Below, in pieces: positions 6,440 to 24,956 of a DNA stretch of 32,000 nt. Every line of letters begins with the position of its first letter. Positions within the stretch are counted from its first letter, which is position 1. Under the pieces are notes generated by a model. It ran no database searches. It had not been told where the DNA came from and saw nothing but the letters and a program-made list of their open reading frames with translations. Source of the DNA: Ktedonobacterales bacterium (GTDB lineage Bacteria; Chloroflexota; Ktedonobacteria; Ktedonobacterales; JADMIN01); the NCBI GenBank assembly GCA_036391685.1, contig DASVZK010000049.1, forward strand, positions 1-32,000, written 5' to 3'. The position numbers and the translations under genes were made by a program.

Positions 6440-7453
6440 ATGAGCGCGACACCCGTTTTACCCGCCGCCCCGGCGGCGAAGCGCGCGATTGACCCGCGCG
6501 TTGGCTATTACTTCGCGGCGGCTAACGCCATCATCAGCGGATTCGCGATTTACATCAACAGCCTGGGCGTCAAGATGTTCCATAGCTCGACGCTCTATAC
6601 GACCATGAAGAACAGCGTGGTCGGGCTGGCCTTGCTCCTCCCCTTCTTCTTCCTCGCCGCCAACCGCGCCGAGATCCGGCGCTTGACCGCGCGCCAGTGG
6701 GGTCTGCTGGCGCTCATCGCGCTCACCGGCGGCAGCGTCGCCTATGCGCTCAACTTCCGCGGCCTGCAACTTTCGAATGCAGTGATGGGCTCACTCACCG
6801 ACCACACGCAGTTCCTGCTGGTGGCGGTCCTGGCGGCCATCTTCCTGCGCGAGCGGTTCGGGGTCTGGGTCTGGGTCGCGCTGCTGGTGCTGTTCGTTGG
6901 CCTCTCCCTCGGCATATCCGTCAGCCAGGTACGCTGGTCGGCTGGCGTGCCGCTGCTGATCGCCGCTGCGCTGCTCTTCGCGATTGACTTTGTGATCATC
7001 AAGTACACGCTCGGCGATGTCTCCACCTGGACCGTGATGCTCTTCAAGATGGGCGGAGGCGCGCTCATCCTGATCGGCCTCGTGCTTGGTGGGAGCCTCT
7101 ACCCGCGGTTCGGCGCGTATGTCGCCGCCAAGGGCGCGGCCAGGGAGCTCGCCACGCTGAACGCGACGCAGTGGGGCTTCGTGATCGTCACCGGCCTGAT
7201 CCTGCTGGCCTTTACCATCACCTCGATTCTGGGCCTGCGCCACGCCTCGGCGACGGGTGTCACGGCGATCTCTGCGGCCTCGCCGATCATCACGACCATC
7301 CTCGTCGTGCTGGCGCAGCATGCGCCGGTCGCGCCCGCGCGCCTGCTCGGCCTGGGCCTGATCCTGGCAGCGGCGGTGGTGATCTTTACCCTCGCGCAGC
7401 GCAAGGAGCTCCGGCTCTGGCGGCAGCGGTCGGCGGCCAGCGCCAGCGCGTAG
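6440..7453 (+). CDS. DMT-superfamily (EamA-like) transporter
   Basis: About 10 TM segments in two halves, typical of duplicated EamA domains. ATG at 6440 preceded by GGAAAGGAAGG. Confidence 0.75.
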   Translation: MSATPVLPAAPAAKRAIDPRVGYYFAAANAIISGFAIYINSLGVKMFHSSTLYTTMKNSVVGLALLLPFFFLAANRAEIRRLTARQWGLLALIALTGGSVAYALNFRGLQLSNAVMGSLTDHTQFLLVAVLAAIFLRERFGVWVWVALLVLFVGLSLGISVSQVRWSAGVPLLIAAALLFAIDFVIIKYTLGDVSTWTVMLFKMGGGALILIGLVLGGSLYPRFGAYVAAKGAARELATLNATQWGFVIVTGLILLAFTITSILGLRHASATGVTAISAASPIITTILVVLAQHAPVAPARLLGLGLILAAAVVIFTLAQRKELRLWRQRSAASASA

Positions 7454-9033: not shown

Positions 9034-9179
9034 GCGCCGCGAGACAAGAGGCGACGAAGCTGATTGGGCCGAAGCCCAGGCGCTCTGCCGATTGAGCTAC
9101 GCGCGCCGAAGCGCGCGGCGGGACTCGAACCCGCGACTTATCTATCCACGAAGGAGCCCTATCTACAGCCTCACGGCAC
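9034..9179 (-). ncRNA. Y-RNA-like unit Y4 (146 nt), YrlA-type with a complete permuted tRNA-like module
   Basis: 12-bp closing helix GTGCCGTGAGGC / GTCTCGCGGCGC (3 G.U). Internally, in order: AAGTC, T-arm GCGGG-TTCGAGT-CCCGC, a 7-bp acceptor-like stem CGCGCGC/GCGCGCG capped by TTCG, then TA and D-arm GCTC-AATCGGCA-GAGC-G. Followed by TTTT. Confidence 0.75.
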
Positions 9180-9504: not shown

Positions 9505-9611
9505 GCGCTCCGCGACAAGAAGCGATGACGTCTCTCACTGACGCTTGCGCGCCAGGTCTGGAGTCGAACCAGAAGAACCACGAAGGAACGCCACCTACAG
9601 CCGCGAAGCGC
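9505..9611 (-). ncRNA. Y-RNA-like unit Y1 (107 nt), with a partial tRNA-like module
   Basis: Starts 14 nt after the rsr stop. 12-bp closing helix GCGCTTCGCGGC / GTCGCGGAGCGC (2 G.U). Second helix GGTGGCG / CGTCATC. T-arm mimic TCTGG-TTCGACT-CCAGA at 9557-9573, followed by a GCAA-capped 6-bp hairpin TGGCGC/GCGTCA. Confidence 0.7.
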
Positions 9612-9625
9612 TCGGCCTTCGCACA

Positions 9626-12448
9626 CTAGGGCAACAGGGAGACCTGCCGGATCGCCTCGACCTGCGAGGCGCCGCCGCGCGCCATCAGGGCGATGAAGCC
9701 CAGCGCGCCGCTGTCCCAGCCATAGAGGTAGTAGCAGCCCGGCTCATCCGGCGGGACCACCGCGTGCCTGTACGGCATGAGTTGCAGGAAGAAGACCAGA
9801 AGCTCCGGGTTGACCCGCTTCTTGTACTCGCGGATCAGGTCCAGCGCGCCGCGGTTCTTCGTCAGGTGGTCTACCCACGACTCACTGTCGGTAATGAAGA
9901 TCGCCACGTCGTAGCGCCGCGCGCTCTTCCCCTTGGAGCCGAAGGCGTACTCCAGCGGCGCCGAGAGGCTGGTGCCGCCGCCGTAGCCACTGACCGCCTG
10001 CGCGATCTTCGACAGCGACTGCCCGTTGTGGACATCGCGCGGGCGCGCCTCGGTGTCAAAGCTGACGATCTCGCCGCGCGCCGCCTTCAGGAACGCCGCC
10101 GCCGCGAAGACCGCCGCGATCTCCGCCATCGTCATATCTGACTTCGGCGAGGGCCGCGAAGACATCGAGCCGCTGATGTCGTTGGCGATCAGGACGCGGT
10201 TGCCCAGCTCTGGCATGTTGGCGACGCTCAACTCGAGCGCCGTCTCCAGCGCCTCCCTGATCTCCACCACCCCTGCGGTGTTCACGTCCTGCTTCTCCAG
10301 CGCCTTGAGCGCCGAGATGAAGCGGAACGGGAACTGCTTCGACTCCGCCACGCGCTTGGGGTCCGCCAGCGTGTTGGTGATGTGCCGCAATGCCGGCCTG
10401 TCCGCCGTGACACCGTACTTGATCATATTATTCAGGTTGCGAAGGCAGTTTCCGGTGACTATCCCGTTGGCCACCAAGAGGTTTGATGGTTCCACAGTGA
10501 CGCAATACACGGGCTTCTCTCCGCTATCCTCAATTGCGACAACTTGGTCGAACGCCACTGAAGGATCGTGACCATACATGGCGCTCGTCGTTGGACGGAC
10601 ATGCGTGAGGCGACTGGCTACTGAAGCCAACTTATCGGCCTTGTAGCCGATGCGCAGAGGCAAGAGCTGAGCCAGGCGAACAACAGCAGTCGCGCGAGAC
10701 ACCTCCACGATATGAATGGGATGACGACTGATGATGGTTTCGCCTTGCTTGGCCTTAGCCATGTAGCTACGCACACGGTTCATGACACCAAATCTTAGAA
10801 GGGCATCGGAGACCTGCTGCGCTAATTTGGCCGAAACAGTCGCATATTCCACACTGGTGTGGAATATTCCCTTGGGATTCGTGCGCTCATGCACGTGTCC
10901 ATCGGTATCGATCAGGCCTGAAAGGCAGCCGATCCAAAACGCTGCACTGAAAGGCTTGTTCGGAAGCGACGTCACTTCGCATCGCAAACCCCATACGTCG
11001 AACTCTCGCAATATCTCAGTAAGGGGGTTACGCTTCCATAGCTTGAAGGGGAATCGCAAGCGCACGATCTTATCAGTATTCGTGGCCGAGATTTCTGTGA
11101 CGCGGCAGGCATGGGCCTCTGCGTACTGTCGCATGAACGCAACTGCGCCATCATTGGGATCGCCATGGAATTCTGGCGTCACAGAAGTCATCCCGCCGTC
11201 GCCTAGCATCGCGCCTACAAAGTAGCCATCATCCTGGCTGCCCAACGAGCCAAAGAAGGCAGCTGTCAAAGGAGATGGAATGTGATCTCCCGCAGCTAAT
11301 TCTGCTGTAGTGCGCCACTCCCATGACTTTCTACCATTACCGCGTCGTTGTGCGATCCAGCGATGATCCAGCGTAGCGTCAAGTACGCGGCCAGAACGGA
11401 AACGAACTGTCTTTACCGGTTGCACGCCGTTGGCTATCCACTCAGATGGTGTTGTTGATACGAGATGGCCTACCTCGTGATCTCGCGGAGGTTGCGACTG
11501 AGGCCCATAGTGAACCGGGCGCGTATCCCATGCTTTGGTGTAGGAGAGCGCCTGCAACTTGTTCTCAACCACATCCTCGATAGGCGCCGTTGTACCGTCT
11601 GCGAGCCAAATAGGTGTGCCTTCAGCCAAACATGCCATGTACGGCATCTGGTACAGCATCGCCGTCCAGACCGCCGCCGATCCGCTGACCTGCGCGGTCA
11701 CGACCTCCCACGGCAGGCGGCTCTCAGCGATCAGGCTAAGCAGCCGCTTCTCGCCATCAGGCGCCGGCTCGCCGCGGTAGGCCCTGGCCTCGGTCTTGAA
11801 CGCCTCGTAGCCGGCGATCTGGGCCAGCCCGTCAGCAACCTCGCCCTTGACCAGGTAGCGCGCGATGTCGTTCGCGGCGCCCGCCAGCTTCGGGCGGGTG
11901 AGGCGGTAGATGTCGCGCAGGCTCATCTCCTGGGACTCGGCGCCATATTTGATCGCGTGGTACTCGCTCATCGCGCCCAGCCAGCGGCCAGCGGCGCGCT
12001 GCACGAGCTTGCCCATGCCGCGCAGCTTCTTCGCGCGGATGAGGCTGATGACGTCCTGCAGGTCGCCCGGGGTGCGCACGACGCGCGGGAAGATCAGGCG
12101 GAACATCTCCTTGGCGTCCTCGTTGGGCGCGGCGGAGAGCGCCACCAGCGCGGTCAGCGGCGCGAGGCGCATCAGGCCCTCGTTGCGGGCGTAGACGATC
12201 GCCTGCGCCAGGTAGCGCGGATCCTTCGCCGCGAAAGCGGCGAAGAGCGCCAGCGCCTCCTCAGCCAGTTCCTGCGCGGATGCGTAAACGGTTGGCTCCA
12301 GCATGCCGGTCCTGAGGACACGCGCCAGCGCCTCCTCGTCGCTGCGGGAGAAGGTGGGCGCGCCCTCGTAGTTCGTCTCGGTGGCCACGTCATAGGCCCC
12401 CGGCGCGAACAGGCGAGTGATCTTGGTTGCCTTGGTCTTTGGCTTCAT
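9626..12448 (-). CDS. rsr: Ro60 orthologue Rsr (TROVE + vWA/MIDAS) carrying an in-frame intein; 940-aa precursor, about 545-aa spliced product
   Basis: Exteins align by eye to Ro60. VWTAMLYQMPYMA|CLRNLNNM matches human [21 protein letters not shown]. MIDAS motif NDISGSMS, GGGTSLSAP, FITDSESW, and a C-terminal GWDSGALGFI matching GFDTGALDVI. Residues 273-667 form an intein. Confidence 0.9.
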   Translation of the reverse strand: MKPKTKATKITRLFAPGAYDVATETNYEGAPTFSRSDEEALARVLRTGMLEPTVYASAQELAEEALALFAAFAAKDPRYLAQAIVYARNEGLMRLAPLTALVALSAAPNEDAKEMFRLIFPRVVRTPGDLQDVISLIRAKKLRGMGKLVQRAAGRWLGAMSEYHAIKYGAESQEMSLRDIYRLTRPKLAGAANDIARYLVKGEVADGLAQIAGYEAFKTEARAYRGEPAPDGEKRLLSLIAESRLPWEVVTAQVSGSAAVWTAMLYQMPYMACLAEGTPIWLADGTTAPIEDVVENKLQALSYTKAWDTRPVHYGPQSQPPRDHEVGHLVSTTPSEWIANGVQPVKTVRFRSGRVLDATLDHRWIAQRRGNGRKSWEWRTTAELAAGDHIPSPLTAAFFGSLGSQDDGYFVGAMLGDGGMTSVTPEFHGDPNDGAVAFMRQYAEAHACRVTEISATNTDKIVRLRFPFKLWKRNPLTEILREFDVWGLRCEVTSLPNKPFSAAFWIGCLSGLIDTDGHVHERTNPKGIFHTSVEYATVSAKLAQQVSDALLRFGVMNRVRSYMAKAKQGETIISRHPIHIVEVSRATAVVRLAQLLPLRIGYKADKLASVASRLTHVRPTTSAMYGHDPSVAFDQVVAIEDSGEKPVYCVTVEPSNLLVANGIVTGNCLRNLNNMIKYGVTADRPALRHITNTLADPKRVAESKQFPFRFISALKALEKQDVNTAGVVEIREALETALELSVANMPELGNRVLIANDISGSMSSRPSPKSDMTMAEIAAVFAAAAFLKAARGEIVSFDTEARPRDVHNGQSLSKIAQAVSGYGGGTSLSAPLEYAFGSKGKSARRYDVAIFITDSESWVDHLTKNRGALDLIREYKKRVNPELLVFFLQLMPYRHAVVPPDEPGCYYLYGWDSGALGFIALMARGGASQVEAIRQVSLLP
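10448..11632 (-). mobile_element. Class-1 intein with LAGLIDADG homing endonuclease (395 aa, residues 273-667 of Rsr)
   Basis: Block A CLAEGTPIWLADG (Cys1, TGT at 11630-11632). Block B TLDH. LAGLIDADG motifs YFVGAMLGDGGM and CLSGLIDTDGHV. Block F VYCVTVEPSNLLVANG. Block G IVTGN followed by +1 Cys (AAC 10448-10450, TGC 10445-10447). GC hand-counted on 60-nt lines: 48-55% inside versus 65-72% in the exteins. Confidence 0.88.
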
Positions 12449-18136: not shown

Positions 18137-18871
18137 GTGTTAGTGGTGTACATGACACTACACCCGCCCGGCGCTGGACGGCGCGGCGGACGCGGGATGG
18201 AAAGCGGGGTCCGGCATATGGCGCAGGTTTGGATAGGGCAGCCCGCGCGAACAGGCCACCGGCTGCGCGACTGGGCGTCCGGCTGGCTGGCGGGGCTCTT
18301 CGCGCTGGCCGACGCCGGCGCGCATGCGGAGCGCGGCGCGCGACACGAACGGGGGCGCGCCGTCAGCGCCGCTCCGCCACCGTCATACGACGCGTTCGTG
18401 CATGAGCACGAACGCGCGATCCTCAACTACCTCTGGCGGATGACAGGCGACGAGCAGGGCGCCTATGACCTGACACAGGAAGTCTTCGTGCGCGCGTGGA
18501 AGCGCTTCGCCCAGGTGCGGGAATACGAAGACCCGCGCGGCTGGCTCTTCCGGGTGGCGACAAACCTCGCCCTCTCCGCGATTTCCCGTCGCCGGGTAAA
18601 GAGTGAGGTCGCGCTCGGCGAGCTCGACCCGGCCTCCAGCGATCCCGCCGGACGCCTGGCGGAGCGCGACCAGGTGCGCGCGACGCTGCTCCAACTCAAT
18701 CCCCAGCGGCGGGCGGCCCTGTGCCTACGCGAGGTCTACGGCCTCAGCTGCGCCGAAGTGGCGAAGGCGCTTGGAATCTCCGGGCCCGCGGCGCGCATGA
18801 CGCTGAGCCGCGCGCGTGAGCAGTTCCGCGACCTCTATCTGCGCGAGGAGGGTGATCGACATGACGCGTGA
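18137..18871 (+). CDS. ECF-type RNA polymerase sigma factor (start codon uncertain)
   Basis: Region 2 ERAILNYLWRMTGDEQGAYDLTQEVFVRAW...RGWLFRVATNLA and region 4 RRAALCLREVYGLSCAEVAKALGISGPAARMTLSRAR. Candidate starts are 18137 (GTG), 18152, 18197 and 18218. Confidence 0.85.
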   Translation: MLVVYMTLHPPGAGRRGGRGMESGVRHMAQVWIGQPARTGHRLRDWASGWLAGLFALADAGAHAERGARHERGRAVSAAPPPSYDAFVHEHERAILNYLWRMTGDEQGAYDLTQEVFVRAWKRFAQVREYEDPRGWLFRVATNLALSAISRRRVKSEVALGELDPASSDPAGRLAERDQVRATLLQLNPQRRAALCLREVYGLSCAEVAKALGISGPAARMTLSRAREQFRDLYLREEGDRHDA

Positions 18872-20444
18872 GACGCTCGTGTGCCAGGCGAACATCGCGC
18901 TCGACACCCTTTCCGCCCTGCGCGATGCGGCGCTCCCAGCGGCGGAGGCGCAGCGGCTGCGCGCCCACATTCCGACCTGCGCCGCCTGCCAGGCCCGCCT
19001 TGCGGACTTCGAGGCGGTAGCCAGCGCCCTGCGCTCCCAACGCGAGCTCAACCCCGGCGACCGCATCTTGAATGGCGCGCACGCAAGGATTGCCGGACGG
19101 AGCGCCCCGTCCTTTCACGGCATGAGGATGTTGGACATGACCAATAAAAGGCGGTTGTGGGCGGGGTTGGCGGCGCTGGCCCCAGCCGCGGCGATCATCC
19201 TGCTCTTCGTCTATGTCTTCACCGGCATCGGCCACCAGTCGCGCCTTGCGACCACGCCGACCCCGAACAAGACACTTGTCCCGACGACGACTCCCAGCGT
19301 CGTGCAGGTTCCTACCTTCACGCCGTCTGTCCCGGCGGAGCAAGCCTGGCGCTCGTTCAAGCCGGCGATTGACGTCACCTTCAAGCCAAGCGGGACGACG
19401 GAGTTCATCCCTGATGTCTTCTCGTCCGACCTCACGTCGATTGGCGGTGTGCTATTCGATGCCGCGAACAGTGGACCCCAACCGGCGCAACTGGCGTACT
19501 ACACCATTGCTACCGGCCAGATCACCAAACTCAGCCCCACCTGGAATGGCTACACTGGCCCCTGGGGCGGCATGCTGGCGATGGATAGCCGCTACATCGT
19601 CTACACCTACAACAGCCAGCCCGGTGGGACCTGCGGCGTCTGCCACAATACCCTTTGGTCGCTGGACCGCGCGACCGGCAAGACCTGGAATTTCAACGCC
19701 AATGCGGGTGGCGATGAGACGGAACTTGTCAGCGCCGATCACGTGGTCTTCGCCAGCGTGACTGGACAGGTCTGGGTGGCGGATCTCGTGGCGCATACGG
19801 TGAAGGTCGCGCTCCCTATCGGTTCGCAGCCATATGGCCCATCATCGCAAGTCACAGCCGATGAGCGGCTGCTCGGCTTCCAGTGGCCGTACCTGATGTA
19901 CGCCGAGACGTCTGCCACCACGCCGAACGCGCAGCAACCGCCCACGACGCTCAACATCCTCGATCTGGCCACTGGAGTGAGCACGCCCATACAGACGACG
20001 ATGCGTGACCAGAGCGGCAATCCCGTTGACCCCAACACAGTCGGGACGCTCGCTCTCGTTGGGACGACGTTATATGCCCAGGTAGGCGCGGGGCTCAACG
20101 GCGTGGATGCGCATGGCAAGCCAGTCAATCTCAACTATGGCTCACTGTATCGTCTGGATAGCGCCTTCACGCCTGGAAACAAGTTCATCGCCGTCGCCTT
20201 CTGGCCGTATAGTGACAAGAATCTCTCGGCGACCATGGTCGCCACACGCCACCTGATTTGGCTCGGCTCAGGCTACTTCTGGGACAACGCGGAGCTACGG
20301 CTTGTCTCGACCTCGCTGACCAGCGCCGATCTGGTTGGCGCCGACATCGTCACGTTTGAAGAGCAGCAGCCCGGCGCGCCGCTCCAGACCTACCATGTCC
20401 TCGCGTACGATACGTCGGCTTTCCCCACCCCGCCTGGCTGGTAG
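18861..20444 (+). CDS. Membrane-anchored ZAS-type anti-sigma factor with a large extracytoplasmic domain
   Basis: ATG at 18861 overlaps the sigma stop, with GAGGAGGG SD. H-x3-C-x2-C motif HIPTCAACQ. Single TM helix LWAGLAALAPAAAIILLFVYVF. An extracytoplasmic domain of about 390 aa, rich in beta-strand-like repeats. Confidence 0.75.
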   Translation: MTRETLVCQANIALDTLSALRDAALPAAEAQRLRAHIPTCAACQARLADFEAVASALRSQRELNPGDRILNGAHARIAGRSAPSFHGMRMLDMTNKRRLWAGLAALAPAAAIILLFVYVFTGIGHQSRLATTPTPNKTLVPTTTPSVVQVPTFTPSVPAEQAWRSFKPAIDVTFKPSGTTEFIPDVFSSDLTSIGGVLFDAANSGPQPAQLAYYTIATGQITKLSPTWNGYTGPWGGMLAMDSRYIVYTYNSQPGGTCGVCHNTLWSLDRATGKTWNFNANAGGDETELVSADHVVFASVTGQVWVADLVAHTVKVALPIGSQPYGPSSQVTADERLLGFQWPYLMYAETSATTPNAQQPPTTLNILDLATGVSTPIQTTMRDQSGNPVDPNTVGTLALVGTTLYAQVGAGLNGVDAHGKPVNLNYGSLYRLDSAFTPGNKFIAVAFWPYSDKNLSATMVATRHLIWLGSGYFWDNAELRLVSTSLTSADLVGADIVTFEEQQPGAPLQTYHVLAYDTSAFPTPPGW

Positions 20445-20548: not shown

Positions 20549-21865
20549 CTAGCCAGCTGATGTGGGGCGCTCACCGAGAGTAACGGTAACAGTATTGGAG
20601 GCGGAGCCACGGACGTAGGTGATGGTGACTTTCGTGCCGGGGGACAAAGGCAGCAGGATCGAGGCGAGGTCGCTGTTGCCTGCGACGGTTTGGCCGTTGA
20701 CGCCGGTGATGATGTCGCCTTGCTGCAGACCCGCTTGCTGCGCCGGGCTGGCGCCGCTGGCGGAGTTGGCGAAATCGGTGATCAGCACGCCAGATTGAGC
20801 GCCCAGGTTATAGGCCGAGGCGATCTGCGGTGTCACGTCCTCGCCGCGAATGCCGAGGAAGCCCTGGCCGGAGTTCTGCAAGTGGCCATACTTGATCAGC
20901 TGGTCCATGACGAACTGCACGCGGTTGGAGGGGATGGCGAAGCCAATCCCGCTCGCCGTGCCGCCACTGTTGGGGTCCACAGCGCCGAGCGTGGGCATGC
21001 CGATTAGCTTGCCCGTCAGGTCGACCAGCGCCCCGCCGCTATTGCCAGGGTTGATCGGCGCGCTAGTCTGGATCAGACCAGTCAGCTCTCCCGCCGGGCC
21101 GCTAGGCGCCTCGCTGGCGCTGCGGTTCAGCGCGCTCACGATGCCGAACGTCGCAGACTGCTGCAGGCCCAGCGGCGAGCCGAGCGCGACCGCGAATTGG
21201 CCCACGACTACCTTGCTTGAATCACCGAAGGAGATCGCGCGCAGGCCGGTTACATTGATCTTGATGACCGCCAGATCGTCCTGCGCTGACTCTCCGGTCA
21301 CTTGCGCCGGATAGGTCTTGCCATTGGAGAGCAGGACCGAATACTGCGAGAACCCCGTCACCACGTGGTCGTTGGTGACGATGTACGTGCCGCTGCTATC
21401 GCTCTTCACGATCTCGCCGGAGCCGATGCCTGAGCCCTGCGCGCCTGTTGACTGCACCTGCGCCACCGACGGCTGTGTCACGCTAATGACATTGATCACC
21501 TGCTGCTGCAGGTCTTTCGCGGCGGCTGGCAAGGCCAGCGTAGGCGAATTGGAGCCGCTCGCGGTGGCCGTGGGGGATGCGCCGGAGGACCTGCCACGCG
21601 CCAGTCCGAAGCCCATGCCCAGTCCGCCGAGCAGCAGCACAACCGCCAGCAGCGCCGCCAGCCACGGCGACATGCGCAGCGTCACTGCTCGCCCAGCGGG
21701 TCGTTCCTGGGGTGGGTAAGGCGGATAGCCTGGCGAGGTCTGCGGTTGATAGGGCTGCGGCGCGTACGGTGCGTAGCCCTGCGAGACAGTGATGGGTTCG
21801 CTGTACTCCTGGCGCTCACCTGAGCTTCCAGGCGTGGTGTTGGGTGTTGTATCTGGTGTCGTCAT
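20549..21865 (-). CDS. htrA: HtrA/DegP-family serine protease with PDZ domain, Pro-rich cytoplasmic N-terminus and one TM helix
   Basis: Catalytic triad contexts TNDHVV, DDLAVIK and GNSGGALVD. C-terminal PDZ segment (GVLITDF...LQQGDIITGVNG). ATG at 21865 with GAGGGAAGAG SD is preferred over the GTG at 21916. Confidence 0.9.
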   Translation of the reverse strand: MTTPDTTPNTTPGSSGERQEYSEPITVSQGYAPYAPQPYQPQTSPGYPPYPPQERPAGRAVTLRMSPWLAALLAVVLLLGGLGMGFGLARGRSSGASPTATASGSNSPTLALPAAAKDLQQQVINVISVTQPSVAQVQSTGAQGSGIGSGEIVKSDSSGTYIVTNDHVVTGFSQYSVLLSNGKTYPAQVTGESAQDDLAVIKINVTGLRAISFGDSSKVVVGQFAVALGSPLGLQQSATFGIVSALNRSASEAPSGPAGELTGLIQTSAPINPGNSGGALVDLTGKLIGMPTLGAVDPNSGGTASGIGFAIPSNRVQFVMDQLIKYGHLQNSGQGFLGIRGEDVTPQIASAYNLGAQSGVLITDFANSASGASPAQQAGLQQGDIITGVNGQTVAGNSDLASILLPLSPGTKVTITYVRGSASNTVTVTLGERPTSAG

Positions 21866-22048
21866 TGGCGTCACTCTTCCCTCTAGAAGCGTCGCCCGCT
21901 CGCCGGCAGCGAACACGCCTCTCTTAACGCTATACGCCCGTGGCGGGGCGCCTGTTGCGCCCCCAGCGGGCGCGAAAACGCTCCGTTAATCAGACCCACT
22001 AACGCTTCTCAGCGCATTGCAAGCTTTCCGGGCTCGCCGCACCTCCTC

Positions 22049-22142: not shown

Positions 22143-22544
22143 GTGACGCCAGTGGATGAGTTCTACCCGCAGGCGGGACATGCGCCGCTGACGCCTGCGG
22201 TCTTCCATATCCTGCTGGCGCTGGCGGGCGGTGAGCGTCACGGCTACGCCATCATGCAGGAAGTGCGGCGGCAAAGCGGCGGGCAGATGCGCCTGGGGCC
22301 TGGGACGCTCTACGGCTCGCTGCGCCGCCTGCTGGAGGAAGGACTGATCGAGGAGATGGATTCGCGTCCTGATCCGGCGCTGGATGACGAGCGCCGCCGC
22401 TACTACCGGCTGACACCGGAGGGCCGGCGCGCCGCGGAGACGGAGGCTGCGCGGCTGGACACGCTGGCGCGGGCGGCGCGCGCGCGCGGACTGTTGCCCC
22501 AGCCTCCAGGTGGCGAGCCCGCTGGAGTAGGAGGCGGTGCGTGA
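22143..22544 (+). CDS. PadR-family transcriptional regulator
   Basis: Winged-helix pattern FHILLALAGGERHGYAIMQEV...GTLYGSLRRLLEEGLIEE...RRRYYRLTPEGRR. The start may be the GTG at 22152, which has better spacing from the GAGAGGAG SD. Confidence 0.9.
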   Translation: MTPVDEFYPQAGHAPLTPAVFHILLALAGGERHGYAIMQEVRRQSGGQMRLGPGTLYGSLRRLLEEGLIEEMDSRPDPALDDERRRYYRLTPEGRRAAETEAARLDTLARAARARGLLPQPPGGEPAGVGGGA

Positions 22545-23875
22545 GCAGGGATGACTGGCCGCCAGGACGGCGCCAGAGTAGCCACTGGTCGCTCCCGATC
22601 TATGCGGCGCTGCTCCGGCTCTACCCGCCCACACTGCGGCGCGAGTACGGCGATGACATGCTCCAGGCTTTCCGAGACACGCTGCGCGAGGAGACACGCT
22701 GTCGCGGGCGGCGCGGAGCGCGGCGGGCATGGGCCATCGCGTTGGGTGACCTGGCGGCCAGCATGCCGGGCGAATGGTCACGCGAGCTGCGGCGTGGCTT
22801 GCCTGTCAGCCGCGCGCGGCGCTACGGCCTGTTACGGCGCACACGCCTGCCGGGAGGCGGCTGGCGGATCGAGGGCTGGCTGGGGAGCGCGCCCGCGCGA
22901 AGGCCGTTGCTGCTGATACCAGGGCGCCCCGCGCGGATGGTCGCGAATAGGGCGAGGAGGATGACGATGCAGGACCGGTTCGACAGGTTCACCGAGCAGG
23001 CGCGGCATGTCTTGCAGTTGGCGCAAGAAGAGGCGCAGAGCTTCAACCACAATTACATCGGAACCGAGCATCTGTTGCTCGGGCTGCTCCGTGAGGAGGA
23101 AGGGCTGGGCGCGCGGGCGCTGGTCAGCCTGGGCGTTGAGCTAGAGAAGGCGCGACATGCCGTCGAGCTCATCATCGGGCGTGGCGACCGCGTCATCCTG
23201 GGCGACATTGGCCTGACGCCGCGCGCGAAGAAGGTCGTCGAGCTGGCGGTGGATGAGGCCCGGCGCCTCGGCCAGCGCTATGTCGGGACCGAGCACCTGC
23301 TGCTTGGCCTCGTCCGCGAGGGTGAGGGTATCGCCGCGGGCGTGCTGGAGTCGCTGGGCGTCAGTCTGGAGACGGCTCGCGCCGAGGTGCAGAGGATGAT
23401 GGCGATGTCCGGCTCGGCGCCCACCATGCCTGCCACGTCCGCCGCGAGGGATCCGCTGCGCCTGGCGGTTCTCTACCTGGCGCTCGCCTGTCGCGACATA
23501 AACGCGACCGCCATGTTCTACGTCGAGGCGCTGGGCGCGAGCGTGGCGACGCCGAATGACTCCGCATCGCAGGGGCTGGCAGGTGGCGAGCGGCTGCTGC
23601 GCCTGCCCTTCGGCGGGGCGCGTGGCGGCGGGACACTGCTGGCGCTGCGCGCGGCCACCCCAGATGAGGCGGCTGTTACAGGGCCTGCCACGGGAGCTAT
23701 CGAGCTCCGAGTCATCGCCAGCGATATCGCTGGGTTGCATAGCGCGATCAAGGAGCGCGGGGCCGCCGGCCTGACCAATCTCGCCGAGATTCCCGGCGCG
23801 CCGAATATGCGCGCATTCACGCTGACCGACCCCGATGGGCGCGTCCTGCGCTTCCAGGGTATCTATCGCGCATAA
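22541..23875 (+). CDS. Three-part fusion: PadR-operon-associated N-terminal region, ClpC-type N-domain (two Clp_N repeats), VOC/glyoxalase-like C-terminal domain
   Basis: GTGA overlap with the padR stop. N-terminal YAALLRLYPPTLRREYGDDMLQAF. FDRFTEQARHVLQLAQEEAQSFNHNYIGTEHLLLGLLREEEG plus a second repeat closely resemble the ClpC/ClpC1 NTD. The C-terminus (YLALACRDINATAMFYVEALGA...AFTLTDPDGRVLRF) fits the VOC fold pattern. Confidence 0.8.
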   Translation: MSRDDWPPGRRQSSHWSLPIYAALLRLYPPTLRREYGDDMLQAFRDTLREETRCRGRRGARRAWAIALGDLAASMPGEWSRELRRGLPVSRARRYGLLRRTRLPGGGWRIEGWLGSAPARRPLLLIPGRPARMVANRARRMTMQDRFDRFTEQARHVLQLAQEEAQSFNHNYIGTEHLLLGLLREEEGLGARALVSLGVELEKARHAVELIIGRGDRVILGDIGLTPRAKKVVELAVDEARRLGQRYVGTEHLLLGLVREGEGIAAGVLESLGVSLETARAEVQRMMAMSGSAPTMPATSAARDPLRLAVLYLALACRDINATAMFYVEALGASVATPNDSASQGLAGGERLLRLPFGGARGGGTLLALRAATPDEAAVTGPATGAIELRVIASDIAGLHSAIKERGAAGLTNLAEIPGAPNMRAFTLTDPDGRVLRFQGIYRA

Positions 23876-24023
23876 CGCGCGCCGGCGCGAGCCTCGTGAT
23901 ACCCATCGGCCGTTCCCGTCATATACTGCCCAACACATCCAACACGTCATAAGAATGATAAGCGCTCTGGCCGCGCGGCGAGGCGCGGGCGCTGTCATGC
24001 TGTGGGGTGGGAGGCGAGGAACG

Positions 24024-24956
24024 ATGGACGGGCAGCCTGGCAGGTTCGACAAGTTCACCGAGCGCGCGCGCAAGGTCCTGAGTCTGGCGCAGGAAGAGGC
24101 GCTGCGCTTCAATCACAACTACATCGGAACGGAGCATCTGCTGCTCGGCCTGATCCGCGAACAGGATGGCACAGCGGCGAAGGCGCTGAAGAACCTGGGC
24201 GTCGAACTCAACAAAGTGCGCGCCGCGGTCGAGTTCATCATCGGCCGTGGCGACCAGATCGTGCTGGGCGATGTCGGGCTGACCCCGCGCTCACGCAAGG
24301 TCATCGAGCTGGCGGTCGATGAGGCGCGGCGCCTCGGCCACCGCTCCATTGGGACCGAGCACCTATTGCTTGGCATCGTCCGCGAGGGCGTCGCCTCAGG
24401 CGTGCTGGAGTCGCTGGGCGCCAACCTGGAGATGGTGCGCGCCGAGGTTGCGCGCCTGTTGGATATGTCCGTTTCGCCTTCCGATGAATTGCTGAGCTCA
24501 TTATTTCACTCGCCAGACAGGGGAGCATGGTTGAAGGTGGCGGCACAGCCCGAACCGCAACCCTTCGGCGCCCTCACGTTCATCTGCCGCGATGTGGCCG
24601 CCACCGCCGCGTACTACATGGACTATCTGGGCGCGACCGAGCTGGATGATCCTGAGTCTACGCTACGCTACGAAATCGCCGCCGAACGGCTTTTGCGGCT
24701 GCCGTTCCATGCGCCGCTGCTGGCGCTGCGCTCCGCGCCGCAAGGCGCGGACGAAGCGGAGCGGAACGTCATCGGCGCGATCGGGCTGGACTTCTTCACC
24801 AGCGAGGTCGGAGCCATCTGGGTCACGCTTCAGGCGCGCGACGCGCCCGGCGTCTCGCCGCTCACCGCGGTTCCCGGCGCGACGGACCGGCGCATGTTCA
24901 CGCTGACTGATCCCGATGGGCGCAAGCTGCGCATCCACAGCGCAATCAACACGTAG
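24024..24956 (+). CDS. ClpC-type N-domain::VOC/glyoxalase-like fusion protein (paralogue of 22541..23875)
   Basis: ATG at 24024 with GGGAGGCGAGGAA SD. GRFDKFTERARKVLSLAQEEALRFNHNYIGTEHLLLGLIREQDG... is roughly 70% identical by eye to the upstream paralogue across the Clp_N repeats. C-terminus FICRDVAATAAYYMDYLGA...MFTLTDPDGRKLRI. Confidence 0.8.
   Translation: MDGQPGRFDKFTERARKVLSLAQEEALRFNHNYIGTEHLLLGLIREQDGTAAKALKNLGVELNKVRAAVEFIIGRGDQIVLGDVGLTPRSRKVIELAVDEARRLGHRSIGTEHLLLGIVREGVASGVLESLGANLEMVRAEVARLLDMSVSPSDELLSSLFHSPDRGAWLKVAAQPEPQPFGALTFICRDVAATAAYYMDYLGATELDDPESTLRYEIAAERLLRLPFHAPLLALRSAPQGADEAERNVIGAIGLDFFTSEVGAIWVTLQARDAPGVSPLTAVPGATDRRMFTLTDPDGRKLRIHSAINT

What the first reader, a model, noticed from the sequence alone, without database searches (positions are those of the whole stretch)
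10448..11632. LAGLIDADG intein inserted in the most conserved TROVE motif of Rsr (Ro60)
Rsr residues 273-667 have all the hallmarks of a class-1 intein: Cys1 in CLAEGTPIWLADG, block B TLDH, two LAGLIDADG motifs, block F VYCVTVEPSNLLVANG, terminal Asn, and +1 Cys. Removing it joins ...VWTAMLYQMPYMA to CLRNLNNMIKYG. This recreates the Ro60 signature (human [14 protein letters not shown]), so the insertion point is a highly conserved site, as is typical for inteins. The element has visibly lower GC (hand counts 48-55% versus 65-72% in the exteins), which suggests horizontal acquisition. Inteins are overwhelmingly reported in replication, repair and other ATP-binding proteins, and I am not aware of one described in an RNA-chaperone/Ro protein. 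The penultimate residue is Gly (TGN|C) rather than the usual His. Both junction nucleophiles are Cys, which in other inteins allows redox-sensitive splicing. That would be of interest for a protein linked to oxidative and UV stress, but this last point is speculation.
Basis: partly seen in the sequence, partly recalled or inferred. Interest (0 to 1): 0.8.

Follow-up and report, generated by a model that had tools for sequence, protein, structure and literature searches.

The report
Mobile intein splitting a bacterial Ro60 gene
The Ro60-type RNA-quality-control gene (rsr) of this soil bacterium is interrupted, exactly in its most conserved motif, by a 395-residue self-splicing intein with its own homing endonuclease. 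The element itself is ordinary, but no paper in the searchable library reports one in this host protein, and it has moved between two bacterial phyla.

Summary
Window 10448-11632 (- strand) encodes a 395-aa LAGLIDADG intein inside the 940-aa rsr ORF (9626-12448). Removing it restores ...MPYMA|CLRNL..., the lowest-entropy 10-residue stretch of the protein in 78 intein-less homologues.

Support comes from profile HMMs, a predicted fold matching TliVMA, PI-SceI and PI-PfuI, invariant catalytic residues in more than 20 homologues, and dN/dS of about 0.1 in both the splicing and endonuclease parts. A syntenic intein-free allele also exists.

Intein identity between Ktedonobacterales and Actinomycetota is 61-70%, against 24-27% for the exteins. 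With GC3 of 0.57 versus 0.92, this shows horizontal spread.

- The intein carries the Trp-Cys-Thr triplet of class 3 inteins together with Cys1, so "class 1" is not secure.
- Its nearest non-Rsr relatives are inteins of phage terminase large subunits.
- A second insertion site lies 10 residues upstream, and Streptomyces holds a free-standing derivative family.

Y RNA genes flank rsr, so the host system looks functional. I found no paper describing an Ro60/TROVE intein, though databases already hold homologues auto-annotated as homing endonucleases. Verdict: a new member of a known kind, of moderate interest. Splicing itself is untested.

The parts
9626..12448 (-). rsr (Ro60/TROVE + vWA) precursor ORF, 940 aa, interrupted by the intein
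   Evidence: One search gives the ORF. Pfam TROVE scores 54.8 bits and vWA_Ro60 51.9 bits. It is identical to NCBI 'TROVE domain-containing protein [Ktedonobacterales bacterium]' (P0001). PDB relatives are 2NVO, 1YVP and 9NEN.
11633..12448 (-). N-extein, 272 aa, ends ...VWTAMLYQMPYMA
   Evidence: GC3 is 0.915.
10448..11632 (-). Intein, 395 aa (Cys1 ... Asn395)
   Evidence: GC3 is 0.57. dN/dS is 0.095 against L021.
11258..11632 (-). N-terminal part of the splicing (Hint) domain, intein residues 1-125, with block A (CLAEGTPIWLADG, 11594-11632) and block B (TLDHRW, 11357-11374: Thr B:7, His B:10, Trp B:12)
   Evidence: TIGR01445 matches residues 1-91. The alignment to the Mtu RecA intein fixes the block register. 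C1, T87, D89, H90, R91 and W92 are invariant. dN/dS is 0.098.
10598..11257 (-). LAGLIDADG homing-endonuclease domain, intein residues 126-345. Motif 1 is YFVGAMLGDGG (11192-11224, Asp145). Motif 2 is FWIGCLSGLIDTDG (10898-10939, Asp244).
   Evidence: Pfam LAGLIDADG_3 scores 42 bits. Both acidic residues are invariant. The fold matches PI-SceI, PI-PfuI, TliVMA and the I-OnuI, I-AniI and I-DmoI meganucleases. dN/dS is 0.098.
10448..10597 (-). C-terminal part of the splicing domain, intein residues 346-395. Block F is VYCVTVEPSNLLVANG (10463-10510, Cys377 at F:4). Block G is IVTGN (10448-10462: Thr G:5, Gly G:6, Asn G:7).
   Evidence: TIGR01443. The alignment to Mtu RecA places Cys377 opposite Asp422. 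Y376, C377, V378, T393, G394 and N395 are invariant.
9626..10447 (-). C-extein, 273 aa plus stop, begins with the +1 Cys codon TGC (10445-10447) then LRNLNNMIKYG
   Evidence: The +1 residue is Leu in 96% of 78 intein-less homologues and Cys in all intein-plus alleles.
9042..9165 (-). YrlA-type Y RNA-like gene downstream of rsr on the same strand (partner RNA of Rsr)
   Evidence: Rfam YrlA scores 39.7 bits, E 3.8e-7, below the gathering score of 69, over 9082-9137. It aligns with full-length YrlA-like hits next to rsr in L020, L021, L001 and L008, with compensatory changes in the T-arm and the variable hairpin. My own model R1 scores 128.7 bits, but this sequence is in the training set.
9513..9597 (-). 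Second, shorter Y RNA-like element directly after the rsr stop codon
   Evidence: Model R1 scores 32.9 bits, E 1.6e-7, and this sequence is not in the training set. L020 has an equivalent hit just after its rsr (6661-6742).

Best explanation
A mobile, splicing-competent intein with an active-looking LAGLIDADG homing endonuclease sits in the chromosomal rsr (Ro60) gene of a Ktedonobacterales bacterium.

Proposed mechanism (inferred, not shown):
1. The 940-aa precursor is translated.
2. The Hint domain excises itself and ligates the 272-aa and 273-aa exteins into a 545-aa Rsr carrying a Leu->Cys scar at +1.
3. Cys1 most likely starts the reaction by an N-S acyl shift, with help from Thr87 and His90.
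4. The acyl group is transferred to Cys+1, Asn395 cyclises, and an S-N shift completes the bond.
5. Cys377 at F:4 replaces the usual Asp. It either coordinates the two junctions or acts as an additional or alternative branch-point nucleophile, as in class 3 inteins.
6. The penultimate Gly is a lineage trait and the lineage works without the usual His.

At the DNA level, the endonuclease is expected to cut intein-free rsr alleles at the conserved sequence TACATGGCN|CTNCTNCGNAACCT. The intein is then copied in by repair, which also brings in the TGC (+1 Cys) codon.

Because that target encodes the most conserved Ro60 motif, the element has been able to move between rsr genes that are only about 25% identical. 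These belong to Actinomycetota and Chloroflexota (Ktedonobacteria). The lineage descends from inteins of phage terminase large subunits.
For: What is shown:
- Coordinates, motifs and exact restoration of the host motif.
- Profile hits.
- AF2 model with pLDDT 77 and pTM 0.79. Its best PDB matches are full-length endonuclease-containing inteins: TliVMA (E 3.8e-15, TM 0.65), PI-SceI and PI-PfuI. The Mtu RecA mini-intein matches the Hint part at rmsd 3.0 A and 30% identity.
- 21+ Rsr inteins share the identical site. Invariant residues are C1, T87, H90, W92, D145, D244, C377, T393, G394, N395 and C+1.
- Purifying selection. dN/dS is 0.095 overall, 0.098 in the endonuclease part and 0.08-0.10 in the Hint parts. 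The exteins give 0.19-0.30. Lentzea pairs repeat the pattern, 0.08-0.12 against 0.23-0.41.
- A syntenic intein-free allele, gltB-rsr-Y RNA-DJ-1, with 84% amino-acid identity and an empty site ..TATATGGCG|CTCTTGCGC.
- Intein identity of 61-70% against extein identity of 24-27% across phyla.
- GC3 of 0.57 against 0.92.
- Junction DNA conserved across phyla.
- The site is the lowest-entropy window of the protein, ranked first.
- Y RNA-like genes are kept beside intein-plus and intein-minus rsr genes.
- The nearest non-Rsr relatives are terminase (TerL) inteins with Cys1, Cys F:4 and a non-His penultimate residue. One lies on a contig with holin and lysozyme genes.
- Penultimate Gly has a precedent in a splicing phage intein, where changing Gly to His impairs splicing (PMC5050341).
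Against: - No splicing or cleavage has been measured. Everything about activity is inferred from conservation.
- Pfam Intein_splicing is below its gathering score (32.8 against 35.8).
- Two usually conserved assisting residues are missing: Asp at F:4 and the penultimate His.
- The WCT triplet leaves it open which Cys starts the reaction.
- The direction of transfer rests on an NJ tree without support values.
- The low GC3 does not fit a simple transfer from high-GC actinobacteria.
- The intein's synonymous divergence exceeds that of the exteins, which I cannot fully explain.
- One relative (L023) has a frameshifted N-extein and a few fragments look decayed, so not every copy is functional.
Confidence: 0.85

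Rival explanations
1. Same element, but it splices by the class 3 route. Cys377 at block F:4, not Cys1, attacks the N-terminal junction and forms the first branched thioester. That thioester is then passed to Cys+1. Cys1 is retained for another reason or as a redundant nucleophile.
For: The complete WCT triplet (Trp92 at B:12, Cys377 at F:4, Thr393 at G:5) is invariant in all Rsr inteins, and its register is fixed by alignment to Mtu RecA. WCT is the class 3 signature, and 3 of the 37 WCT inteins first described keep Ser1 or Cys1 (PMC2807308). In solved class 3 inteins the F:4 Cys sits between both junctions (PMC6195587 and PMC7664689).
Against: Cys1, Thr B:7 and His B:10 are invariant here and throughout the related TerL lineage, whereas class 3 inteins have lost the position-1 nucleophile and usually the block B Thr. 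The +1 residue is Cys, while class 3 inteins almost always have Ser or Thr. The nearest solved relatives by sequence are class 1 inteins, and no solved class 3 intein appears even at E<=10. [quoted passage not shown] Grafting WCT onto a class 1 intein did not create a class 3 intein (PMC7664689).
Confidence: 0.2
2. The intein is a dead insertion. It no longer splices, rsr is inactivated, and the ORF is merely still open.
For: Splicing is untested. The penultimate His and F:4 Asp are absent. Pfam Intein_splicing is below threshold. Some relatives are decayed (L023 frameshift; P0102 with TGT|C and P0105).
Against: All nucleophiles and block residues are invariant across two phyla. dN/dS is about 0.1 in the intein, and 0.19-0.30 in exteins compared between two intein-bearing alleles. 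Partner Y RNA genes are retained. The Gly penultimate and Cys F:4 are shared by a whole lineage, including phage terminases, which are normally essential for phage DNA packaging.
Confidence: 0.05
3. Splicing is conditional. The three cysteines of the catalytic centre (Cys1, Cys377, Cys+1) form a disulfide under oxidising conditions. Rsr would then stay as an inactive precursor until reducing conditions return, or the reverse, making the intein a redox switch for RNA quality control.
For: Three Cys lie at or next to the active site. There is precedent: the F:4 Cys of the Msm DnaBi1 intein forms a disulfide under H2O2 and blocks splicing in vivo (PMC6195587). From my own knowledge, Rsr contributes to UV and oxidative-stress survival in Deinococcus. 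rsr lies next to a DJ-1/PfpI gene.
Against: There is no direct evidence at all. Cys nucleophiles are the commonest kind in inteins. The +1 Cys is simply required for splicing. The related terminase inteins have Ser at +1. The pattern of sporadic presence, HGT and a conserved endonuclease fits a selfish element without any need for a host benefit.
Confidence: 0.15

Closest known systems
Mycobacterium tuberculosis RecA intein (PI-MtuI), a class 1 LAGLIDADG intein
   Same: It is the nearest solved relative by sequence (E 3.9e-8 with the profile). It has an identical start, CLAEGT, the same block order, and a Hint fold at rmsd 3.0 A with 30% identity. It also sits in a conserved site of an actinobacterial host protein.
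   Different: The host is a recombinase ATPase. PI-MtuI has Asp at F:4 (D422) and a penultimate His, where the Rsr intein has Cys377 and Gly394. It lacks Trp at B:12 and Thr at G:5.
Inteins of phage terminase large subunits (TerL), as in mycobacteriophage and metagenomic phage contigs
   Same: These are the closest non-Rsr relatives in 1.84 billion representatives (P0181 at 302 bits; P0185, P0187-P0199 and others). They share Cys1, Thr B:7, His B:10, Cys F:4, both LAGLIDADG Asp residues and a non-His penultimate residue (Gly or Ser).
   Different: The host is an ATPase/nuclease, with insertion after Walker B (..K|C...|S-I/L-x-P-M). The +1 residue is Ser and the C-terminal residue is often Gln. 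Trp B:12 and Thr G:5 appear only in the nearest members. They show no GC3 contrast with their host gene.
Class 3 inteins (MP-Be DnaB, Msm DnaBi1, Mch DnaB1, Dra Snf2)
   Same: The Trp B:12, Cys F:4, Thr G:5 triplet is fully present and invariant.
   Different: Class 3 inteins lack a position-1 nucleophile, usually lack Thr B:7, have Ser or Thr at +1, keep the penultimate His, and sit mostly in helicase-type P-loops (PMC2807308). The Rsr intein has Cys1, Thr B:7, Cys+1 and a Gly penultimate, and shows no detectable sequence affinity to solved class 3 inteins.
RtcB inteins
   Same: The host is an RNA-repair protein. rtcB lies in the same operon as rsr in Salmonella (my recollection, not checked in a held paper). 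Their existence shows that inteins are not confined to DNA-metabolism proteins (27 bacterial RtcB inteins, PMC4760082).
   Different: The host fold and site are different. I did not test for homology between the inteins.
PI-SceI (yeast VMA1 intein) and its free-standing derivative HO endonuclease
   Same: It has the same two-domain architecture, Hint plus double LAGLIDADG, and is among the top structural matches. The Streptomyces free-standing homologues of the Rsr intein parallel the VMA1-to-HO relationship (from my own knowledge).
   Different: Sequence identity is only 13%. The host is a eukaryotic V-ATPase. PI-SceI has an extra DNA-recognition region.

Membership tests
Intein (Hint-domain protein-splicing element) | In-frame insertion whose removal restores a contiguous, conserved host sequence | tested here: met
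   Excision gives MPYMA|CLRNL, collinear with intein-less homologues and with human, Xenopus and Deinococcus Ro60. A syntenic empty allele exists in L020.
Intein (Hint-domain protein-splicing element) | Nucleophile at position 1, block B Thr-x-x-His, C-terminal Asn or Gln, nucleophile at +1 | tested here: met
   Cys1, T87-L-D-H90, Asn395 and Cys+1 are all invariant in 15-21 homologues.
Intein (Hint-domain protein-splicing element) | Curated profile scores | tested here: inconclusive
   TIGR01443 passes at 25-28.8 bits (cut-off 15.6). TIGR01445 passes at 25.2 bits (cut-off 24.5) on the intein alone but scores 23.0 in the precursor. Pfam Intein_splicing fails at 32.8 bits (cut-off 35.8).
Intein (Hint-domain protein-splicing element) | Hint fold | tested here: met
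   The AF2 model (pLDDT 77) matches TliVMA, PI-SceI and PI-PfuI over its full length, and Mtu RecA, Ssp DnaB mini-inteins over the Hint part. This rests on a prediction, not a solved structure.
Intein (Hint-domain protein-splicing element) | Autocatalytic protein splicing | not testable with these tools
   Needs expression followed by western blot or MS.
LAGLIDADG (double-motif) homing endonuclease | Two LAGLIDADG helices, each ending in a catalytic acidic residue, and the alpha-beta-beta-alpha-beta-beta-alpha fold | tested here: met
   GAMLGD145GG and SGLIDTD244G are invariant. Pfam LAGLIDADG_3 scores 42 bits. The fold matches the I-OnuI, I-AniI, I-DmoI and I-SceI meganucleases.
LAGLIDADG (double-motif) homing endonuclease | Site-specific cleavage of the intein-less allele | not testable with these tools
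   Indirect support only: dN/dS of 0.098 in this domain, an empty allele and a conserved target sequence.
Class 1 intein | Position-1 Cys or Ser used as the first nucleophile, with assisting Thr B:7 and His B:10 | tested here: inconclusive
   The residues are present and invariant, and the nearest solved relatives are class 1. Their use as the first nucleophile is not testable here. The typical F:4 Asp and penultimate His are replaced by Cys and Gly.
Class 3 intein | Trp B:12, Cys F:4, Thr G:5 triplet | tested here: met
   W92, C377 and T393 are invariant, with the register set by alignment to Mtu RecA.
Class 3 intein | No nucleophile at position 1; Ser or Thr at +1 (PMC2807308) | tested here: not met
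   Cys1 and Cys+1 are present in all members.
Class 3 intein | Obligate block F Cys nucleophile and a block F branched intermediate | not testable with these tools
   Needs C1A and C377A mutants and detection of the intermediate.
Rsr / Ro60 (host protein) | TROVE ring domain plus Ro60-type vWA domain | tested here: met
   Pfam TROVE scores 54.8 bits and vWA_Ro60 51.9 bits. PDB hits are 2NVO, 1YVP and 9NEN over nearly the full length of the spliced sequence. NCBIfam equivalog RNA-bind_Rsr scores only 71.8 bits against a cut-off of 900, so it is a Ro60-family member but not that equivalog.
Rsr / Ro60 (host protein) | Y RNA gene encoded next to rsr (PMC4201824) | tested here: inconclusive
   Rfam YrlA scores 39.7 bits, below the gathering score of 69, E 3.8e-7. 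Full-length sub-threshold YrlA hits lie beside rsr in four related loci. Covarying stems and my own model support two copies in the window. Binding is not tested.

The most novel reading that the evidence does not exclude
The Rsr intein represents a mechanistic hybrid not yet characterised. It is a class-1-type scaffold that has the complete class 3 Trp-Cys-Thr triad, no penultimate His, and three cysteines (Cys1, Cys F:4, Cys+1) around the scissile bonds. This would let it splice through either nucleophile, or be locked by a disulfide. If so, maturation of the Ro60 RNA-surveillance protein would become redox- or stress-dependent in the bacteria that carry it.
Probability: 0.15. Interest if true: 0.7.

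Novelty: new member of a known kind. Interest (0 to 1): 0.5.

Why it matters
- **New host family.** It adds Ro60/Rsr, a ring-shaped RNA-quality-control protein that is not an NTPase, to the known intein hosts. This bears on whether intein sites are chosen for function or merely for sequence conservation. Here the site is the most conserved motif, and its DNA is similar enough across phyla to serve as a shared homing target.
- **Compact evolutionary series.** The data give a natural series for intein evolution: phage terminase inteins, then Rsr site b and site a in Actinomycetota, then Ktedonobacteria, plus a free-standing derivative fixed at one Streptomyces locus.
- **Mechanistic test case.** The combination of Cys1, the WCT triplet and a Gly penultimate residue is a ready-made test of what really separates class 1 from class 3 splicing.
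- **Annotation.** rsr genes carrying this insert are currently named 'LAGLIDADG family homing endonuclease' or 'hypothetical protein', which hides a Ro60 orthologue.

Tried and rejected
- **Rfam at gathering thresholds** on the whole window found nothing. The Y RNA appeared only with permissive thresholds and comparative loci.
- **ARAGORN** found no tRNA or tmRNA.
- **The simple promoter/terminator scan** of the rsr-DJ-1 spacer found nothing.
- **Folding energy** of Y RNA #1 is not unusual (z -1.33), so support for it rests on homology and covariation, not energy.
- **Cultured-phage records** hold no close relative of the intein (best 28.7% identity).
- **One IMG/VR 'viral' contig** (L025) carries an intein-bearing rsr, but its neighbours have no Pfam hit and only one marginal PHROG hit to an unknown-function family (E 1e-4). 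I do not count it as evidence for a phage vector.
- **Papers I could not read:** Tori & Perler 2011 (PMC3133030), Stein et al. 2005 (PMC1769319) and Boccitto & Wolin 2019 (PMC6542706) are not held. As a result, the class of WCT inteins with Cys1, and the contacts made by the LRNL motif in Ro60, could not be checked from the source.
- **Supplementary tables** of the Novikova et al. intein survey are not held, so an Rsr entry there cannot be excluded.
- **Assembly chimera** as the cause of the GC drop is rejected, because independent assemblies show the same thing.
- **A BIL or Hedgehog-type Hint domain** is rejected. The element has a +1 nucleophile and an endonuclease, and its removal restores the host motif exactly.

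Full report
**1. Observation**

The minus-strand ORF 9626-12448 encodes 940 aa. Residues 273-667 correspond to window 10448-11632 and form a 395-aa insert. It begins CLAEGTPIWLADG and ends IVTGN, followed by Cys.

The insert is compositionally distinct. Its GC is 54.9%, against 68.9% and 65.9% in the flanks. At third codon positions the values are 0.57 against 0.92 and 0.93.

**2. It is an intein with a homing endonuclease**

- Pfam finds TROVE and Ro60-type vWA domains in the flanks. In the insert it finds LAGLIDADG_3 at 42 bits (cut-off 22.5) and Intein_splicing at 32.8 bits, just under its cut-off of 35.8.
- NCBIfam intein_Nterm passes at 25.2 bits (cut-off 24.5) and intein_Cterm at 25-28.8 bits (cut-off 15.6). 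The insert also hits the intein portions of intein-containing DnaB, RecA, GyrA and Tes models.
- A profile of 15 homologues finds the Mtu RecA intein as the nearest solved relative. That alignment fixes the register of blocks A, B, F and G.
- An AlphaFold2 model (pLDDT 77, pTM 0.79) matches full-length endonuclease-containing inteins best: TliVMA 7QSU (E 3.8e-15, TM 0.65), PI-SceI and PI-PfuI. The middle domain matches LAGLIDADG meganucleases. The terminal parts match the Mtu RecA mini-intein at rmsd 3.0 A and 30% identity.

**3. The host and the site**

The spliced 545-aa sequence aligns over nearly its whole length with D. radiodurans Rsr (2NVO), Xenopus Ro60 (1YVP) and human RO60 (9NEN). 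The junction falls between the residues equivalent to A280 and L281 of vertebrate Ro60, directly before LRNL.

In an alignment of 78 intein-less homologues, MPYMA|(L)LRNL is the lowest-entropy 10-residue window of the entire protein (0.70 bits, rank 1). The +1 residue is Leu in 96% of intein-less proteins and Cys in every intein-bearing one. The nucleophile therefore travels with the element, and mature Rsr would carry a Leu-to-Cys scar.

I could not obtain the structural papers needed to say what this motif contacts.

rsr is followed on the same strand by two Y RNA-like genes:
- 9042-9165. Rfam YrlA scores 39.7 bits, below gathering, E 3.8e-7.
- 9513-9597. My own covariance model scores 32.9 bits, E 1.6e-7, and this sequence was not in the training set.

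Full-length sub-threshold YrlA hits lie next to rsr in related loci of both phyla, with compensatory changes in the stems. This matches the published rule that YrlA genes lie adjacent to rsr (PMC4201824).

The neighbourhood is chromosomal: NiFe hydrogenase, EamA, DUF6390, DJ-1/PfpI, gltB, HtrA and Clp_N proteins.

**4. Relatives and population structure**

The identical protein is in NCBI as 'TROVE domain-containing protein [Ktedonobacterales bacterium]'.

- Five close relatives (70-87% identity) also carry the intein.
- At least six others (84-87% identity, 542-551 aa) do not.
- One intein-free allele (L020) lies in the same gltB-rsr-Y RNA-DJ-1 context. Its empty site reads ..CCGTATATGGCG|CTCTTGCGCAAC.
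- About 15 further intein-bearing Rsr proteins come from Actinomycetota: Lentzea, Micromonospora, Nocardia, Rhizohabitans, Glycomyces, Amycolatopsis, Microbispora, Asanoa and Nonomuraea.
- All have the intein at the identical position.

Between the window and these actinobacterial proteins the intein is 61-70% identical, while the exteins are only 24-27% identical. That is a clear signature of horizontal transfer.

The healed junction DNA is similar in both phyla: ATG-(CCG|GGN)-TAC-ATG-GCN|TGC-CTN-CGN-AAC-CTN. This offers a simple reason why one endonuclease lineage could target such divergent genes.

In a scan of 185,579 species-representative genomes, only about 11 carry an Rsr intein, all of them actinobacterial.

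**5. Is it alive?**

- C1, T87, D89, H90, R91, W92, D145, D242, D244, Y376, C377, V378, T393, G394 and N395 are invariant in the 15-sequence alignment. The key positions hold in all Rsr inteins tabulated.
- Between the window and another intein-bearing allele (L021), dN/dS is 0.095 for the intein. By part it is 0.098 (Hint-N), 0.098 (endonuclease) and 0.077 (Hint-C). The exteins give 0.19 and 0.30.
- Lentzea species pairs give 0.08-0.12 for the intein against 0.23-0.41 for the exteins.

Both activities therefore appear to be under purifying selection, and the exteins remain constrained after invasion. This argues against a dead insertion. A few copies elsewhere are decayed.

**6.

Aligned to Mtu RecA, block B reads T-L-D-H-R-W, so Trp is at B:12. 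Block F reads V-Y-C-V, so Cys377 lies opposite RecA Asp422 at F:4. Block G reads V-T-G-N, so Thr is at G:5 and Gly at G:6.

Trp B:12, Cys F:4 and Thr G:5 form the WCT triplet that defines class 3 inteins. In those inteins the block F Cys, not residue 1, attacks the N-terminal junction (PMC2807308, PMC6195587 and PMC7664689).

This intein nevertheless keeps Cys1, Thr B:7 and Cys+1, all invariant. Class 3 inteins lack a position-1 nucleophile, usually lack the block B Thr, and have Ser or Thr at +1.

- The founding paper notes three WCT inteins with Ser1 or Cys1 whose class was then unresolved.
- The paper that resolved them is not held.
- By sequence, the Hint part is nearest to class 1 inteins, and no solved class 3 intein is detected even at E<=10.

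I therefore favour a class 1 start at Cys1, with Cys377 as a non-canonical assisting or alternative residue (about 0.65 against 0.2). Mutants are needed to settle it.

The penultimate Gly is invariant and has precedent. Mycobacteriophage inteins often lack the His, and the Bethlehem gp51 intein (Gly) splices better than its G-to-H mutant (PMC5050341).

**7. Origin**

An exhaustive profile search of 1.84 billion representatives shows the nearest non-Rsr relatives. They are inteins in terminase-large-subunit-like proteins, inserted after Walker B (..K|C...|S-I/L-x-P-M). P0181 scores 302 bits and lies on a contig with holin and lysozyme genes.

This whole lineage shares Cys1, Thr B:7, His B:10, Cys F:4, both LAGLIDADG Asp residues and a non-His penultimate residue. 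More distant inteins revert to Asp, Asn or Gly at F:4 together with His at G:6.

A neighbour-joining tree (no support values) gives this order:
1. Terminase inteins lie outside.
2. An Rsr intein at a second site comes next.
3. Several deep actinobacterial-type Rsr inteins follow.
4. A crown holds three clades: Ktedonobacterial Rsr inteins, crown actinobacterial Rsr inteins, and a free-standing Streptomyces family.

This suggests a route from phage terminase to actinobacterial rsr to Ktedonobacteria. The direction is an inference.

It sits uneasily with the very low GC3 of the Ktedonobacterial copies. The intein is less GC-rich at third positions than its exteins in every host: 0.52-0.72 against 0.86-0.93 in Ktedonobacterales, and 0.73-0.87 against 0.85-0.97 in most actinobacterial hosts. 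L008 and L015 show essentially no contrast (0.86 vs 0.85-0.86; 0.93 vs 0.92-0.96).

Intein dS is also about 1.5-2 times extein dS in all pairs. Codon-bias saturation in the exteins may account for part of this. I leave it as unexplained.

**8. Comparison with what is known, and novelty**

Functionally this is a standard mobile intein. I found no paper that places an intein in Ro60, Rsr or a TROVE protein. The 2016 survey of bacterial inteins does not mention one in its main text, and its supplements are not held.

Two points temper the novelty:
- That survey lists RtcB, an RNA ligase encoded alongside rsr in the Salmonella rsr-yrlBA-rtcBA operon (my recollection, not checked in a held paper), among the top 15 hosts. 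RNA-repair proteins are therefore not virgin territory.
- Homologous sequences are already public and machine-labelled as homing endonucleases.

I rate it a new member of a known kind. It has some instructive extras: cross-phylum spread, two sites, a hybrid class signature, and a domesticated or relic derivative. The redox-switch idea is plausible by analogy (PMC6195587) but has no support of its own.

**9. Confidence**

| Claim | Confidence |
|---|---|
| This is a genuine intein plus LAGLIDADG endonuclease in rsr | >0.95 |
| It is splicing-competent and mobile as described | about 0.85 |
| The class 1 route | about 0.65 |
| Redox control | about 0.15 |

Noticed in passing
L009-L012, L016-L018 (Streptomyces genomes); proteins P0108-P0176: More than 50 protein clusters of free-standing 'LAGLIDADG family homing endonuclease' genes of about 390-430 aa occur in Streptomyces, and also in Actinoplanes and Planomonospora. 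They are 53-58% identical to the Rsr intein over residues 2-394 and have no exteins. They have lost Cys1, the block B TxxH, the F:4 Cys and the terminal Asn, but both LAGLIDADG motifs are intact. They sit at one syntenic locus (flanks 80-96% identical over 3.9 kb). Some are intact and some are decayed. This is an intein-derived relic or domesticated gene, reminiscent of yeast HO.
   Followed up: partly
L014 4001-5119 (Streptosporangium sp.) and protein P0180: A related intein (43-48% identity) occupies a second site in rsr, 10 residues upstream of the main one (..AWE|C...VVTGN|CVIPSMGYMALLRNL). Site a is left empty, with its native Leu.
   Followed up: partly
window 9042-9165 (-) and 9513-9597 (-): Two Y RNA-like genes with a tRNA-like T-arm lie in the 700-bp spacer between rsr and the convergent DJ-1/PfpI gene. 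Both are below the Rfam gathering score and are supported by comparison with related loci.
   Followed up: partly
L013 739-2636 and 2994-3111 (Asanoa ishikariensis); also L014, L001-L007: Actinobacterial rsr genes are preceded by tandem arrays of Y RNA-like elements. The count reaches about seven in L013 (six on the rsr strand, one weak on the other) and three in L014.
   Followed up: no
L025 3101-5953 (IMG/VR UViG_3300035169_000087, 99 kb): An intein-bearing rsr (65% intein identity) with two upstream Y RNA-like genes lies on a contig that IMG/VR classes as viral. Flanking ORFs have no Pfam hit and only one marginal PHROG hit to an unknown-function family (E 1e-4), so the viral assignment is unverified.
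   Followed up: partly
L023 1248-3990: In this farmland-metagenome relative the N-extein is in a different frame from the intein and C-extein. This is either a frameshift or an assembly error just upstream of the junction.
   Followed up: no
window 10448-11632 versus flanks; L001-L008, L021, L023: The intein has lower GC3 than its exteins in nearly every host (L008 and L015 show essentially none). It also has higher dS but lower dN than the exteins in all pairs compared. A single recent transfer from a low-GC donor does not explain this.
   Followed up: partly
window 18816-20444 (+): A 542-aa ORF with no Pfam match at E<=1e-5.
   Followed up: no
window 22541-23875 (+) and 23835-24956 (+): Two adjacent ORFs each carry paired Clp_N domains without a recognisable ATPase domain. 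They lie next to an HtrA-type protease on the opposite strand, 20549-21916.
   Followed up: no
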